DNA from: Promethearchaeota archaeon
GTDB lineage: Archaea > Asgardarchaeota > Lokiarchaeia > Sigyniarchaeales > SOKP01
DNA: 64,000 bases
Direction of reading: 5' to 3'
NCBI GenBank assembly: GCA_030599585.1
Contig: JAUVNS010000003.1
Location: 306,491 to 370,490, forward strand
Position 1 is the first letter of the stretch. The number at the start of each line of letters is the position of its first letter. The notes below the pieces were generated by a model. The model had not been told where the DNA came from and did not search any database. It saw only the letters and a program-made list of their open reading frames with translations. Position numbers and translations under genes: made by a program. Below, piece by piece: positions 29,478 to 32,879 of this stretch.

Positions 29478-30011
29478 TTAATTGGGTAAAAATTCCATCT
29501 CATCTAATGCATCTATAACTATTTTAGTACTTTCTTCGATTGTTTGCTTGTCAGTATCAACAACTATGTCTGCTTTGTCTGGTTCTTCAAAAGGAGAATC
29601 GATGCCTGTGAATTGTTTGATCTCGCCGGCTCTAGCCTTAGCATACATTCCTTTCACGTCTCTCTGTTCACATACTTCAATTGGACATTTTACATAAACT
29701 AAAATGTAATCCCCAATTTCTTTTCGAGAGTAATCCCTAATATCGTTAAAAGGTGAAATAAAAGAAGCTAAAACGGCAACTTTATTTCGAGTGAGTAGCT
29801 TTGCTACAAAGGTGATTCTTTCGATATTCATTCTTCGATCGTCGTCTGAAAATCCTAGGTCTCGAGTTAAACTCTTTCTGACAATATCTCCATCAAGCCG
29901 TTCTACTTTCATCCCTCGAGCTTTTAGATCCTCAGCTACGGCATCAGCTAAAACAGATTTACCTGAACAAGCAAGTCCCGTAAACCATAACGTAAATCCT
30001 TTATGTTCCAT
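29478..30011 (-). CDS. cysC: Adenylyl-sulfate kinase
   Basis: WFTGLACSGKS P-loop, LDGDIVR, DLGFS, RDVKGMY.KAR.GEI..FTGIDSPFE. Confidence 0.95.
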   Translation of the reverse strand: MEHKGFTLWFTGLACSGKSVLADAVAEDLKARGMKVERLDGDIVRKSLTRDLGFSDDDRRMNIERITFVAKLLTRNKVAVLASFISPFNDIRDYSRKEIGDYILVYVKCPIEVCEQRDVKGMYAKARAGEIKQFTGIDSPFEEPDKADIVVDTDKQTIEESTKIVIDALDEMEFLPN

Positions 30012-30043
30012 CTTTTTTTCTCTTTCGTAATTTATATTTTCAA

Positions 30044-31429
30044 TTAAAATTCTATACTTTTTCCTTCTAAATCTTCTGGAATATTGATTCCAAATATATT
30101 CAATATCGTAGGTGCTATATCTAAAATATTTTTTGTTTCTAATTTTTTCCCTTTTTCTTTTAATGGGTCATAGATGATAAAAATCCCGTTATAATCGTGA
30201 ACTGCATCGTCAGGTCCAGTGTCATTTTCGTCTAAATACATACTTTTATAACCTATTGTTCCAGCTGATCTCCAATTCAAATCGTCAAAATAAACTAATA
30301 GGTCAGGAGCGTCGCCTCGTACATTCTCGTATAAATCCTCAGGTTTAAAAATTTTCGTTTTCATAGGGTTTCCCAAATTATCGGGAATTGTTTTTAACTT
30401 TTCTGTTAAAATTCTTCGATAGTTCTCGTATTCGGAGGGCTCTATGATTCCAAATTTCTCTCTACCCTTAACATTCAAAAAAATTCGGGCGTAATAACCC
30501 CCCCAACCCCACGCATAGGTTTTATTCCAATCAATTAGTTCGTCTTTCAACCTCGTTCCTGGAAGCGGGCGCTCTTTAAATGTTAATAATCCAAGCTTTT
30601 CTAACGCCATATTTACACAAATACACCCTTTCATGGCTTTAGCACCATGATCTGAAACAACAAAAACTATAGTATCTTGATCAAGTAAATTTAAGACCTC
30701 TCCAATTTCTTTATCTAAGAATTTATAGAAATTTTTCATTGCTGTTTCAAATGTATTACCTGGTTCAAATTTGTGATGCGATTTATCGTAATATTTCCAA
30801 AACGCGTGGTGGAATCTATCCAATCCAATTATAACAAATTGGCAAAAATCCCATTCCTTATTCTTTATTAGGTATTTGAGGGCTTTAAAATGCATTTTTG
30901 TCATTTTATAAAGGGATATTAACAATTCTGCCTTGTGTGATGTCCGAAATAACACGTCAAAAGTATAGTGCTCTACAACTTTGCTTATCTCTTCCTTTAA
31001 CTCCGGAGGATAAGTAAAGTTCGATAAAGAATCAGGAGTAATAAAGCCAGAAATTAAGCTCCCATTAATTGGTTGAGGTGGGAATGTGGGTGGTACGCCT
31101 AGTATTATTGATTTGTATCCTCTCTTTCCTATAATGTCCCAAATTTTAGGTTCTTTTATGTTTTGTGAGTTAGCGATCCAGAAATCAGTATACGAATTTT
31201 CTTTTCGATGTCGAAACCCATATATTCCTAGAGTCCCTGCTTTTTTGCCTGTTGCCATTACCATCCAAGCTGGAACGGTAATTGGGGGATCTGAACTTCT
31301 AAGCTTTCCATATACCCCTTTATTCATTAATTTTCTTATGTTTGGGCATTCGTCTTTAAAATCTTCGAATAATGTTTTAGGAGTAGCACAATCTAAACCA
31401 ATAACTATCACTTTTTTTTTGCTACTCAA
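30044..31429 (-). CDS. Alkaline-phosphatase-superfamily enzyme (nucleotide pyrophosphatase/phosphodiesterase type)
   Basis: IGLDCA, PPITVPAW (Thr nucleophile), DRFHH, VSDHG, HDYNG, DIAPTIL. Confidence 0.88.
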   Translation of the reverse strand: MSSKKKVIVIGLDCATPKTLFEDFKDECPNIRKLMNKGVYGKLRSSDPPITVPAWMVMATGKKAGTLGIYGFRHRKENSYTDFWIANSQNIKEPKIWDIIGKRGYKSIILGVPPTFPPQPINGSLISGFITPDSLSNFTYPPELKEEISKVVEHYTFDVLFRTSHKAELLISLYKMTKMHFKALKYLIKNKEWDFCQFVIIGLDRFHHAFWKYYDKSHHKFEPGNTFETAMKNFYKFLDKEIGEVLNLLDQDTIVFVVSDHGAKAMKGCICVNMALEKLGLLTFKERPLPGTRLKDELIDWNKTYAWGWGGYYARIFLNVKGREKFGIIEPSEYENYRRILTEKLKTIPDNLGNPMKTKIFKPEDLYENVRGDAPDLLVYFDDLNWRSAGTIGYKSMYLDENDTGPDDAVHDYNGIFIIYDPLKEKGKKLETKNILDIAPTILNIFGINIPEDLEGKSIEF

Positions 31430-31440
31430 GACAAATTCTC

Positions 31441-32595
31441 CTAATTGGCTCCGACAAACGGATTACTATATTTTAGTATAACTTCAGCTACTTCAGGTCT
31501 CATAACATCTGCCGTTGGTGGATTTCCAGCAAGAAGAGCTTCTCGAATTTTTGTTCCTTTAAAAAAGTCGTGGAGTTCAGGAGGGTGAGGACAGATTTTA
31601 TCGTTTACAATTGAATTACACTTCTTACAACGCGAAAAAGATCGAAAGAATAACGGCTCTATCCCTAAATCTGGAAACATATCAAAAATTTTATGGGCGT
31701 CATATGGCCCGTAAAAATCTCCCACTCCAGCGTGGTCTCTTCCTATAATTATATGATCGCAACCAAAATTTTTTCTTGCAATTGCGTGGAAAATAGCTTC
31801 TTTTGGACCAGCATATCGCATTTCTGTTTCAAAAGTGCTTAAAACAACGCGATTTTCAGGATAATAGTTTTTAATCAACGCCTTATAAGCATTAATTATC
31901 ACTTCGTCTAAAAAGTCCCCTGCTTTTTTCCTACCGATCACAGGGTTTATGAAAAGCCCATCAACAAAAGTTAAACCCGCCTTCTGGACATATTCGTGTC
32001 CTAAATGAGGAGGATTTCTCGTTTGAAAAGCTACAACGCGATCCCAATTTTTTGCTTTAAACAGAACGCGCGTTTCTATTGGTTTTAAATCTAGTTCAGG
32101 AAAAATTGGATTAATTTTGTTAATGAGGAATATATCTCCCCCTATTAATTTTTCTTTTTGGTCGAAAACTCTTTTAACTCCTGGATGAGTTTTATCTAAT
32201 GTGCCATATACTTTTTCTGCGAAGTTTTTTTTATTATAACTATAAATATCTTTGATGTTGAACAAAGCAATCGGGTTATTAGAAAAGTCGGTTAAAATTA
32301 CGGAATCATCCTCTTTTAGGTTCGATACCTCGCTTTCAGAGACATCAAGCACAATCGGAAATGGCCATGCGATCTCGTTTTCTAAATACATCTGATCCAG
32401 AACATTTAACATATCGTTTTCGGTCATGAACCCTTCTAAAGGGCTAAAAACTCCAAAAGCGATGTTTTTAATAACTTTCAAAGTTTCCGAATCGGTCTTT
32501 ATTTTTTCAAACTCGTCAATTTGGGCTAAAATTTTCTGCTTTTCGCTTTCAGGTAGTTCTTTATTAATCAAACTACCCCCATGTGGTTCTATCAT
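31441..32595 (-). CDS. sat: Sulfate adenylyltransferase (ATP sulfurylase)
   Basis: PHGG, FSPLEGFM, FQTRNPPHLGHE, MRYAGPKEA, GRDHAG, MRPEV. Confidence 0.96.
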   Translation of the reverse strand: MIEPHGGSLINKELPESEKQKILAQIDEFEKIKTDSETLKVIKNIAFGVFSPLEGFMTENDMLNVLDQMYLENEIAWPFPIVLDVSESEVSNLKEDDSVILTDFSNNPIALFNIKDIYSYNKKNFAEKVYGTLDKTHPGVKRVFDQKEKLIGGDIFLINKINPIFPELDLKPIETRVLFKAKNWDRVVAFQTRNPPHLGHEYVQKAGLTFVDGLFINPVIGRKKAGDFLDEVIINAYKALIKNYYPENRVVLSTFETEMRYAGPKEAIFHAIARKNFGCDHIIIGRDHAGVGDFYGPYDAHKIFDMFPDLGIEPLFFRSFSRCKKCNSIVNDKICPHPPELHDFFKGTKIREALLAGNPPTADVMRPEVAEVILKYSNPFVGAN

Positions 32596-32639
32596 GATAA
32601 TTCTATTTTCTTATTTCTTATTTTCTTTGAAATTTTAAT

Positions 32640-32879
32640 TTAATCGATATACCCTAGATCTCTTAATCGCTCTTTTACTCTATCTTCTTCGTCTTTTGTA
32701 AACGCTTGTTTTGTCTTTTCATCTTGCTCAATTGAAGATAAAACTTGCCTTAAGACATAGGTTACATAACTAGATACTGAAGAAAAACCAGTCCCTTTCA
32801 TTCGTTCTTTTACCTTATCTGCTAAAGGTTTGGGAATAGAAACCGTCGTATATTCAACTTTATGTTCATCGTTAGACAT
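32640..32879 (-). CDS. CopG/ribbon-helix-helix regulator with a C-terminal ERLRDLGY tail
   Basis: Beta ribbon YTTVSIP followed by two helices (LADKVKERM, SVSSYVTYVLRQ); first gene of the sat operon. Confidence 0.85.
   Translation of the reverse strand: MSNDEHKVEYTTVSIPKPLADKVKERMKGTGFSSVSSYVTYVLRQVLSSIEQDEKTKQAFTKDEEDRVKERLRDLGYID

What the first reader, a model, noticed from the sequence alone, without database searches (positions are those of the whole stretch)
29478..32879. RHH regulator carrying a sulfatase-type 'ERLRxLGY' tail heads a sat - AlkP enzyme - cysC operon: a possible split enzyme/sensor system
Seen: the 79-aa RHH protein ends DEEDRVKERLRDLGYID. The NPP-type AlkP enzyme between sat and cysC ends right after EGKSIEF, and neither sulfatase-like protein in the window has an LGY tail. 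Established from family knowledge: many sulfatase/NPP-like proteins in glycan loci end in an acidic '...ERLRALGY' helix. Inference: the tail is supplied in trans. The transcription factor would dock on the AlkP enzyme, completing it or being sequestered by it, and so couple APS/PAPS/PAP status to transcription of PAPS synthesis. I know of no characterised example.
Basis: partly seen in the sequence, partly recalled or inferred. Interest (0 to 1): 0.8.

Follow-up and report, generated by a model that had tools for sequence, protein, structure and literature searches.

The report
Sulfate-activation operon repressor with shared tail
A tiny, very conserved DNA-binding regulator heads this Asgard archaeon's operon for making activated sulfate (PAPS). 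Its odd "LGY" end-peptide is real and is shared with some sulfate-pathway enzymes, but it is not a missing piece of the neighbouring phosphatase-fold enzyme, and what it binds is still unknown.

Summary
A 79-aa ribbon-helix-helix (RHH) protein ending ...EDRVKERLRDLGYID heads a tight sat–NPP(AlkP fold)–cysC operon, and the NPP ends at EGKSIEF without that tail.

- The tail is the most conserved part of a large archaeal RHH family (851 clusters at 50% identity).
- That family sits directly upstream of sulfate-activation genes whether or not an NPP is present. Of 82 family genes with enough downstream DNA, 77 head sat or cysDN, only 23 have the NPP, and all 82 keep the tail.
- The NPP is catalytically complete and folds confidently alone. 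In tailed paralogs the tail hangs on a 45–55-residue linker, so it is not a split-off enzyme part.

I also found the likely operator: three or more TAATTA hexamers at exact 10-bp phasing, 25–80 nt upstream of the RHH gene and conserved across phyla. In this 4.85-Mb genome the exact triple occurs only twice, here and in front of a small-ORF–tauE unit 10 kb away.

My best reading is an autoregulatory repressor of a PAPS/TauE regulon whose tail is a protein-contact helix with an unresolved partner.

This scan has reported the same family, tail and operator before on other genomes.

The parts
32935..32960 (.). Candidate operator: TAATTA-N4-TAATTA-N4-TAATTA (three palindromic hexamers at 10-bp phasing), 56-81 nt upstream of the RHH ATG. 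A degenerate fourth unit lies at 32925-32930.
   Evidence: The exact triple occurs only twice in the 4.85-Mb genome. The same phased array lies upstream of RHH orthologs in Asgard, Thermoplasmatota and Altiarchaeales loci.
32640..32879 (-). 79-aa RHH regulator: beta strand YTTVSIP, helices 17-27 and 35-59, and the LGY-tail helix 62-75.
   Evidence: VIA-align matches NikR at 0.8 A over 46 residues and PutA at 1.1 A over 44, with antitoxins at Z 5-6.
32643..32702 (-). C-terminal tail, residues 60-79 (AFTKDEEDRVKERLRDLGYID): an acidic patch followed by an amphipathic helix ending in LGY.
   Evidence: The family's only invariant residues lie here.
31441..32595 (-). sat, ATP sulfurylase (PUA_2 + ATP-sulfurylase domains).
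   Evidence: NF003166, E 1e-147.
30044..31429 (-). Tail-less, cytoplasmic NPP-type AlkP-superfamily enzyme with D13, T51, D204, H208, D260, H261 and H411 conserved.
   Evidence: Foldseek to ENPP1, E 3e-18.
29478..30011 (-). cysC, APS kinase. Here its C-terminal helix reads ...IDALDEMEFLPN instead of the ...KL.ELGYL found in many archaeal CysC.
22940..22995 (.). Second phased array of six units (four exact TAATTA, plus TAATGT and CAATTA), 20-75 nt upstream of the small ORF that precedes tauE.
   Evidence: Arrays in front of tauE recur in four further genomes of the family.
22765..22920 (-). Conserved 51-aa ORF with a C-terminal membrane helix, lying between the array and tauE.
   Evidence: 43-59% identical copies in four relatives. 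No Pfam hit.
21961..22752 (-). TauE/SafE-family anion transporter, a likely second transcription unit of the regulon.
   Evidence: (PF01925, E 5e-16).
36807..37688 (-). Sulfotransferase (Sulfotransfer_1), the likely consumer of the PAPS within a nonulosonate/glycan locus. Listed as context, not as part of the operon.

Best explanation
The 79-aa protein is the dedicated RHH transcription regulator of the archaeal sulfate-activation (PAPS) operon, most likely an autorepressor.

- **DNA binding.** RHH dimers would bind a run of TAATTA hexamers spaced one helical turn apart, overlapping the promoter of its own operon (RHH-sat-NPP-cysC). A second array lies in front of a small-ORF-tauE transporter unit 10 kb away.
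- **The tail.** The LGY tail is the family's hallmark, not a detached piece of the NPP. It is a short amphipathic helix on an acidic linker that mediates a protein contact.
- **What the tail might contact.** One option is another repressor dimer on the phased operator. The other is a sulfate-pathway protein that reports pathway status. In architecture this resembles RHH antitoxins, whose C-terminal tails bind the operon's enzyme.
- **Shown here.** The RHH fold, the operon linkage, the operator conservation and specificity, the independence of the tail from the NPP, and the completeness of the NPP.
- **Inferred.** Repression rather than activation, and protein contact by the tail. The partner is unresolved.
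For: **Family and fold**
- There are 740 close homologs, named CopG or Arc/MetJ by their sources, and 851 clusters at 50% identity.
- The model has pLDDT 84 for residues 10-50 at 93-94.
- The VIA-align top 40 are almost all RHH proteins, including NikR (0.8 A over 46 residues) and PutA (1.1 A over 44).
- By sequence, NikR is the best DNA-binding match (E 0.02-0.06).

**Linkage to sulfate activation**
- The RHH lies directly upstream of sat in 71 of 80 loci from Thermoplasmatota, Altiarchaeales and Methanofastidiosia, and in the Asgard loci.
- Of 82 RHH genes with at least 4.5 kb downstream, 70 head sat+cysC and 7 head cysDN.

**Operator**
- Three TAATTA hexamers at 10-bp phasing lie upstream of the gene.
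- In the window there are 7 matches with up to 2 mismatches, against 0.27 expected.
- The exact triple occurs only twice in the genome.
- 53 of 104 RHH upstream regions have a triple with at most 2 mismatches, against 0.05% of random 130-nt windows from the same loci.
- Nearly all sites in about 1 Mb of fetched loci lie 25-81 nt before an RHH start.
- Among 26 genomes of the family, the 13 exact sites comprise 5 upstream of RHH-sat, 5 loci upstream of the small ORF-tauE (one holding two overlapping sites), 1 upstream of a sulfatase and 2 elsewhere.

**Tail is independent of the NPP**

**NPP is complete**

**Literature**
- A 'putative copG transcription factor' heads the copG-sat-DHH pApase-NPP-cysC(-tauE) cluster of Pyrococcus yayanosii (PMC8268124).
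Against: - There is no experimental DNA-binding or expression data.
- The transcription start is unknown, so repression rests on analogy with other RHH autoregulators.
- The operator is AT-rich and resembles a TATA box in a genome of about 28% GC. The genome-wide count argues against chance.
- No Pfam or NCBIfam model reaches its cut-off for the RHH.
- The tail's function is not established. The same tail on enzymes that do not bind DNA is not explained by simple repressor self-association.
- An earlier scan report on another genome says a multimer model puts the tail in the NPP's catalytic cleft. I could neither reproduce nor refute that.
Confidence: 0.8

Rival explanations
1. The tail docks in trans on the operon's tail-less NPP. 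It either completes the enzyme or is sequestered by it, and so couples APS/PAPS/PAP status to transcription.
For: - The distribution is complementary. Operon-type NPPs never have the tail (0 of 51 Asgard orthologs; 0 of 23 operons; alignment), whereas NPP and sulfatase paralogs elsewhere do.
- The NPP ortholog co-occurs with the RHH in 49 of 51 genomes.
- In this genome no other protein carries the tail.
- Earlier scan reports on other genomes mention a multimer model with the helix in the NPP cleft. I did not reproduce this.
Against: - 59 of 82 RHH-LGY operons lack the NPP and keep the same tail.
- 13 RHH-positive Asgard genomes lack the ortholog. Some carry RHH-sat-DHH-sulfotransferase-cysC instead.
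- The NPP has all its catalytic residues and folds alone at pLDDT 93.6.
- In paralogs the tail is tethered by a long linker, so it is not a structural part of the fold.
- The co-occurrence is confounded by plain operon membership.
Confidence: 0.15
2. The tail is a self-association helix. It lets neighbouring RHH dimers bind cooperatively to the 10-bp-phased hexamer array, as in P22 Mnt tetramerisation or omega/CopG cooperativity. Enzymes carry it for their own oligomerisation.
For: - Operators consist of 3-6 phased units.
- The tail and the operator are conserved together across phyla.
- This genome has no other tail-bearing protein and no universal partner gene.
- The tail is predicted helical, with hydrophobic residues at i, i+4, i+7 and i+10 (and the sequence).
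Against: - One short helix is little for a stable oligomer.
- The model does not explain why the same 20-residue peptide, acidic prefix included, is restricted to sulfate/PAPS-related enzymes: NPP, sulfatase, PAPS_reduct/CysD and CysC.
Confidence: 0.3
3. The tail mimics the native C-terminal helix of archaeal APS kinase (and CysD). It docks on a core sulfate-activation enzyme (Sat/CysDN or CysC), so that enzyme occupancy reports pathway flux to the repressor.
For: - Many operon CysC proteins end ...EES..KVL.KL.ELGYI, and PDB 7YQ0 ends ...LKKLMELGYL. Positions V-9, L-5, L-2, G-1, Y0 and L+1 match the RHH tail.
- PAPS_reduct/CysD-like proteins directly after the RHH end ...MQKLRSLGYM.
- sat or cysDN follows the RHH in 77 of 82 cases.
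Against: - The similarity to CysC and CysD is short and statistically weak (E 0.01-1).
- In those enzymes the helix is part of their own fold.
- This window's CysC has lost the LGY ending.
- A few RHH genes head only sulfotransferase or ABC-transporter genes.
Confidence: 0.2
4. The invariant tyrosine is a covalent acceptor (sulfated, adenylylated or phosphorylated), so the tail acts as a chemical sensor or carrier of pathway status.
For: - Y77 is invariant.
- There is an acidic patch upstream.
- A sulfotransferase and an NPP-type phosphodiesterase are encoded nearby.
Against: - There is no direct evidence.
- G76 and L72 are equally invariant, which fits a helix-capping or packing role.
- Many operons have no sulfotransferase or NPP.
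Confidence: 0.05

Closest known systems
Putative copG regulator of the archaeal sulfate-assimilation cluster (PYCH_17520, in copG-sat-DHH pApase-NPP-cysC with tauE adjacent, Pyrococcus yayanosii; Jin et al. 2021, PMC8268124)
   Same: A small RHH gene comes first, followed by ATP sulfurylase, an NPP-type enzyme and APS kinase, with tauE nearby.
   Different: - The Asgard operon here has no DHH pApase gene.
- The paper only annotates the regulator. It describes neither the tail nor the operator nor the regulon.
- I did not compare the Pyrococcus sequence itself.
RHH antitoxins of type II toxin-antitoxin operons (ParD, TacA, KacA, B. subtilis MazE, RelB, FitA)
   Same: - They are the best full-length structural matches (Z 5.4-6.2).
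- The architecture is the same: an N-terminal RHH DNA-binding domain plus a C-terminal helix or tail that binds an enzyme of the same operon and tunes autorepression.
   Different: - There is no toxin gene. The downstream genes are biosynthetic enzymes.
- The tail sequence is shared with enzymes rather than being specific to one partner.
Cooperative RHH repressors on tandem repeats (omega repressor on 7-bp heptads, CopG, MetJ metboxes, Arc; P22 Mnt with a C-terminal tetramerisation helix)
   Same: The RHH fold is shared (one search lists omega, Arc, AmrZ and NikR). The operators are made of several short repeats in helical phase.
   Different: The repeat here is a palindromic hexamer, TAATTA, with a 10-bp period. 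No oligomerisation role of the tail has been shown. What I say about these systems rests on my own knowledge.
CysE-CysK cysteine synthase complex and CymR-CysK of Bacillus subtilis
   Same: They set a precedent in sulfur metabolism for a C-terminal peptide docking into an enzyme's active site, and for an enzyme acting as co-regulator of a transcription factor (own knowledge).
   Different: The folds and the peptide are unrelated (a C-terminal Ile in CysE). No docking has been shown here.
Nucleotide pyrophosphatase/phosphodiesterases (ENPP1/3, Xanthomonas NPP)
   Same: The operon's AlkP enzyme matches PF01663 (E 4e-47) and ENPP1/ENPP3/Xac NPP structures (Foldseek E 3e-18 to 1e-15). The bimetal ligands and the Thr nucleophile are conserved.
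   Different: - Identity is only 13-16%, and there is no PDB match by sequence.
- The enzyme is cytoplasmic and its substrate is unknown. PPi hydrolysis is only speculated in PMC8268124.

Membership tests
Ribbon-helix-helix (Arc/MetJ/CopG) DNA-binding superfamily | N-terminal beta strand followed by two helices (the beta-alpha-alpha fold of the dimeric ribbon) | tested here: met
   - The AF2 model has pLDDT 93-94 over residues 10-50 and helices 17-27 and 35-59. The strand is not called in the monomer.
- VIA-align matches NikR at 0.8 A over 46 residues, PutA RHH at 1.1 A over 44 and AmrZ at 1.7 A over 48.
Ribbon-helix-helix (Arc/MetJ/CopG) DNA-binding superfamily | Significant match to a curated RHH sequence model | tested here: not met
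   - There is no Pfam family at E<=0.01.
- The NCBIfam NikR subfamily scores 15 bits against a cut-off of 119.
- PDB NikR matches at E 0.03-0.06.
- The family is too divergent for existing models. Database sources nevertheless name it CopG or Arc/MetJ.
Ribbon-helix-helix (Arc/MetJ/CopG) DNA-binding superfamily | Binds repeated operator half-sites, usually in its own promoter | tested here: inconclusive
   Comparative evidence only: phased TAATTA arrays specific to RHH and tauE promoters.
Archaeal sulfate-assimilation cluster regulator (copG of PMC8268124) | First gene of a cluster with ATP sulfurylase and APS kinase | tested here: met
Archaeal sulfate-assimilation cluster regulator (copG of PMC8268124) | Cluster also holds the DHH pApase | tested here: not met
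   No DHH gene lies in this operon, and tblastn finds no homolog of the operon-type DHH in the genome. Two other DHH-domain ORFs lie elsewhere.
Type II antitoxin (RHH class) | Adjacent cognate toxin gene | tested here: not met
   The downstream genes are sat, NPP and cysC. I did not run a toxin-family search.
NPP / type I phosphodiesterase (AlkP superfamily), for the 461-aa enzyme | PF01663 above cut-off, and an NPP-like fold | tested here: met
   162 bits against a cut-off of 23. Foldseek to ENPP1 gives E 3e-18 and probability 1.00.
NPP / type I phosphodiesterase (AlkP superfamily), for the 461-aa enzyme | Two-metal site ligands and a Thr/Ser nucleophile | tested here: met
   D13, D204, H208, D260, H261 and H411 are invariant, and T51 nearly so, in 25 orthologs and paralogs. 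Assigning them to the metal site is by analogy with NPP structures (own knowledge).
Split enzyme (tail as a missing structural element of the NPP) | Enzyme incomplete or unstable without the peptide | tested here: not met
   The NPP model is confident and compact without the tail (pLDDT 93.6, pTM 0.92). In tailed paralogs a 45-55-residue linker separates the fold end from the tail.

The most novel reading that the evidence does not exclude
The LGY tail is a pathway-wide docking tag. The same 20-residue helix, on the repressor and on NPP, sulfatase, CysD and CysC-type enzymes, binds a common site. That site would be either another tail or a sulfate-activation enzyme, which in Asgard operons could be the tail-less NPP. 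Enzyme occupancy would then set how much repressor is free to sit on the TAATTA arrays. This would be a metabolic counterpart of the toxin-antitoxin 'conditional cooperativity' circuit, controlling PAPS supply for glycan sulfation.
Probability: 0.3. Interest if true: 0.75.

Novelty: new variant of a known kind. Interest (0 to 1): 0.6.

Why it matters
- **Regulation.** Regulation of sulfate activation in archaea is essentially uncharacterised. Here there is a compact, testable system: a 79-aa repressor, a sharply defined operator (phased TAATTA hexamers) and a two-unit regulon (PAPS synthesis plus a TauE transporter), all conserved across several archaeal phyla.
- **The shared end-peptide.** In the sequences I examined, the tail occurred only on this regulator and on sulfate/PAPS-related enzymes. 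That hints at an undescribed way of tying enzymes and gene control together.
- **This organism.** In this Asgard archaeon the PAPS most likely feeds sulfation of a nonulosonate-containing surface glycan, a trait of interest for Asgard cell-surface biology.

Tried and rejected
- **Split enzyme: rejected.** The NPP has all its catalytic residues and a confident stand-alone fold. The tail in paralogs sits on a long linker.
- **NPP as the general tail partner: rejected.** 59 of 82 operons lack it.
- **Toxin-antitoxin module: rejected.** There is no toxin-like neighbour.
- **NPP as a replacement for the DHH pApase: left open, not claimed.** NPP and DHH alternate in Asgard operons and co-occur in seven other operons. 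The genome also has two Inositol_P and two DHH-domain ORFs elsewhere.
- **Searches that led nowhere.**
  - The 'longer' homolog search for fused forms found only two short fusions.
  - A PDB sequence search with the NPP gave no hit.
  - Foldseek with the RHH model gave only E>1, although its top hits were RHH-like.
  - Literature searches for the tail strings and for an RHH regulator of ATP sulfurylase found nothing relevant beyond PMC8268124.
  - Lee et al. 2009 (PMC2687159) is not held.
This biases the 80 loci toward tails containing [KN][VI]KERLRAL.
  - I did not use the third homolog search.

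
Full report
**What is there**

The window comes from a 4.85-Mb Asgard (Promethearchaeota/Loki-type) genome of about 28% GC. On the minus strand four genes are packed with gaps of 44, 11 and 32 nt:
- a 79-aa ORF (32879..32640);
- ATP sulfurylase (32595..31441; PF01747 and PUA_2; NF003166, E 1e-147);
- a 461-aa type I phosphodiesterase/NPP of the alkaline-phosphatase superfamily (31429..30044; PF01663, E 4e-47);
- APS kinase (30011..29478; PF01583, E 7e-60).

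The window's two sulfatase-family ORFs (38019-39377 and 57199-58656) end in ...KNIKL. In the whole genome no other ORF of any length ends in the RLxxLGY motif.

The surroundings form a surface-glycan island. It holds a Sulfotransfer_1 enzyme, two NeuB genes, a CMP-transferase, glycosyltransferases, a UDP-GlcNAc 2-epimerase and a TauE transporter. The PAPS is therefore probably made for sulfation rather than for reduction (inference).

**The small protein is an RHH regulator of a large family**

- It has 740 close homologs at 82-95% identity across Loki-, Heimdall- and Hodarchaeota. Where sources name them, they are called CopG or Arc/MetJ RHH regulators.
- An exhaustive search finds 851 clusters at 50% identity, most 65-90 aa long and aligned end to end.
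- No curated model reaches its threshold. The AlphaFold2 model is nonetheless confident over the core (pLDDT 93-94).
- VIA-align returns almost only RHH proteins: NikR at 0.8 A over 46 residues, PutA at 1.1 A over 44, AmrZ, Arc, omega and many RHH antitoxins at Z 5-6.
- In an alignment of 73 representatives the only invariant columns are L72, G76 and Y77, all in the tail. Across phyla the tail reads almost letter for letter F(S/T)KEDEEKVKERLRALGYLD.
- The tail is thus the hallmark of the family, not a peculiarity of this locus.

**What the family is linked to**

- In 80 loci from Thermoplasmatota, Altiarchaeales, Methanofastidiosia and others, the RHH lies directly upstream of sat in 71, and cysC follows in 67.
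- The gene between sat and cysC is usually a DHH phosphoesterase of the archaeal PAP-phosphatase type, often followed by a small sulfotransferase-like P-loop protein.
- Where sat is missing, the RHH heads a PAPS_reduct/CysD-CysN pair.
- Pooling all loci, 82 RHH genes have at least 4.5 kb downstream. Of these, 70 head sat+cysC, 7 head cysDN, 57 include the DHH enzyme and only 23 include an ortholog of this window's NPP. All 82 keep the tail.
- Within Asgard archaea the RHH was found in 62 of 151 sampled genomes, patchily even within the genus. The NPP ortholog was found in 51, of which 49 are RHH-positive and the other two sit at contig edges.
- Thirteen RHH-positive genomes lack the NPP. Some carry RHH-sat-DHH-sulfotransferase-cysC instead.
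- A cluster of this type, 'putative copG'-sat-DHH pApase-NPP-cysC with tauE adjacent, has been described for Pyrococcus yayanosii. There the NPP was only speculated to remove PPi (PMC8268124).

**The tail on enzymes**

A 24-residue tail profile finds, besides the RHH genes, C-terminal tails on large ORFs in 11 of the 151 Asgard genomes, 10 of which are RHH-positive.
- These ORFs are NPP-type paralogs of 540-567 aa (25-34% identical to the operon NPP) and two sulfatase-family proteins.
- In the alignment the operon-type enzymes stop at the conserved ...(E/D)GK.I.. that ends the fold. The tailed paralogs continue with a 45-55-residue Pro/Lys/Glu-rich linker and then LTKEEE.EI.ERL+.LGY.
- Many archaeal CysC proteins natively end in ...KVL.KL.ELGYI. 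The solved APS kinase 7YQ0 ends ...LKKLMELGYL. CysD-like proteins after the RHH end ...MQKLRSLGYM.
- These last resemblances are short and statistically weak (E 0.01-1). They do, however, all fall on sulfate/PAPS proteins.

**Is the NPP incomplete?**

No. D13, T51, D204, H208, D260, H261 and H411, the pattern of the two-metal site and nucleophile of NPP-type enzymes, are conserved in operon-type and tailed enzymes alike. The tail-less enzyme folds at pLDDT 93.6 and pTM 0.92. It matches ENPP1/ENPP3/Xanthomonas NPP structures at E 3e-18 to 1e-15. The 'split enzyme' version of the idea is therefore rejected.

**An operator and a regulon**

- Upstream of the RHH start lies TAATTA-TGTA-TAATTA-AATA-TAATTA: three palindromic hexamers exactly 10 bp apart, 56-81 nt before the ATG.
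- Orthologous Asgard promoters carry three to six such units.
- In the window, the pattern with up to two mismatches occurs 7 times in three places, against 0.27 expected from shuffles.
- In the whole genome the exact triple occurs twice, against roughly 0.007 expected from the hexamer's frequency.
- Across about 1 Mb of fetched loci, sites with at most one mismatch lie almost only 25-81 nt before an RHH start. This holds in Thermoplasmatota and Altiarchaeales too.
- 53 of 104 RHH upstream regions have a triple with at most two mismatches, against 0.05% of random 130-nt windows from the same loci.
- The genome's second exact site is a six-unit array at 22940-22995. It lies 20-75 nt before a conserved 51-aa membrane-helix ORF that precedes tauE.
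- Among 26 genomes of the family, the 13 exact sites break down as follows: 5 lie before RHH-sat; 5 loci lie before this small ORF-tauE pair, one of them holding two overlapping sites; 1 lies before a sulfatase; and 2 lie elsewhere. The reversed control pattern gave 2 sites.
- This is strong comparative evidence that the protein binds these arrays and controls both PAPS synthesis and a TauE-type anion transporter.
- Repression rather than activation is inferred from the position over the promoter and from other RHH autoregulators.

**What the tail does**

This remains open. Four facts constrain it.
1. The tail is as conserved without an NPP as with one.
2. In this genome it is present on the repressor alone.
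3. Elsewhere it is attached by flexible linkers to cytoplasmic enzymes of the sulfate/PAPS sphere.
4. The protein's best full-length structural relatives are RHH antitoxins, whose C-terminal tails bind an enzyme of the same operon.

I rank the options as follows:
- a self-association helix giving cooperative binding on the phased array (about 0.3);
- docking on a core activation enzyme, mimicking CysC's own terminal helix (about 0.2);
- docking on the NPP as a lineage-specific use (about 0.15);
- covalent modification of Tyr77 (about 0.05).

Earlier reports of this scan on other genomes mention such a model, which I treat as an untested lead.

**Relation to earlier scan findings**

The same family, tail and phased TAATTA operator have already been reported by this scan on several other genomes. 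I derived the operator before reading those notes. I took the leads to PDB 7YQ0 and to PMC8268124 from them and checked both. In the held literature I found no description of the tail or the operator.

**Verdict**

The feature is a real, conserved regulator with a defined operator and an unexplained, pathway-restricted end-peptide. I class it as a new variant of a known kind: an RHH autoregulator with a partner-contact tail.

Noticed in passing
window 22765-22920 (-): A conserved 51-aa ORF with a charged N-terminal half (W.IG.EAKELD.KSI.ER) and a C-terminal membrane helix. It sits between the six-unit TAATTA array and tauE. The same trio occurs in four related genomes. It has no Pfam match.
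   Followed up: partly
window 51342-51367: A phased TAATTA-like triple with two mismatches, between a MatE-like flippase (49580-51226, -) and a methyltransferase/GT2 pair (51472.., +). It may be a weak third operator in the glycan locus, or chance.
   Followed up: no
window 38019-39377 and 57199-58656: The two sulfatase-family paralogs (34% identical) both end in ...KNIKL. Relatives of the first carry the LGY tail in other genomes (L146, L148).
   Followed up: partly
L044:4657-7044 and L045:1649-3829: Tailed NPP paralogs of two Asgard genomes lie next to a GT2 glycosyltransferase and a very large TPR protein (more than 790 aa). A TPR protein could be a peptide receptor, but this was not tested.
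   Followed up: no
L062 (G038:C1:522500-538500), RHH at 7867-8088 (-): A second RHH-LGY paralog, with two exact operator triples. It heads an ABC-ATPase, a CobW-like GTPase and an Fe-S protein rather than sat, and lies divergent from a C_GCAxxG_C_C protein. This may be another regulon branch.
   Followed up: partly
window 23132-24925 (+): A 597-aa ORF with a weak ubiquitin-conjugating-enzyme (UQ_con) match and a Cys-rich C-terminus, lying on the other side of the tauE array. In relatives the array goes with tauE, not with this gene.
   Followed up: partly
window 33075-36164 (-): A 1029-aa polytopic membrane protein with no Pfam match lies directly upstream of the RHH promoter. It may be a glycan-processing or oligosaccharyl-transferase-like enzyme.
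   Followed up: no
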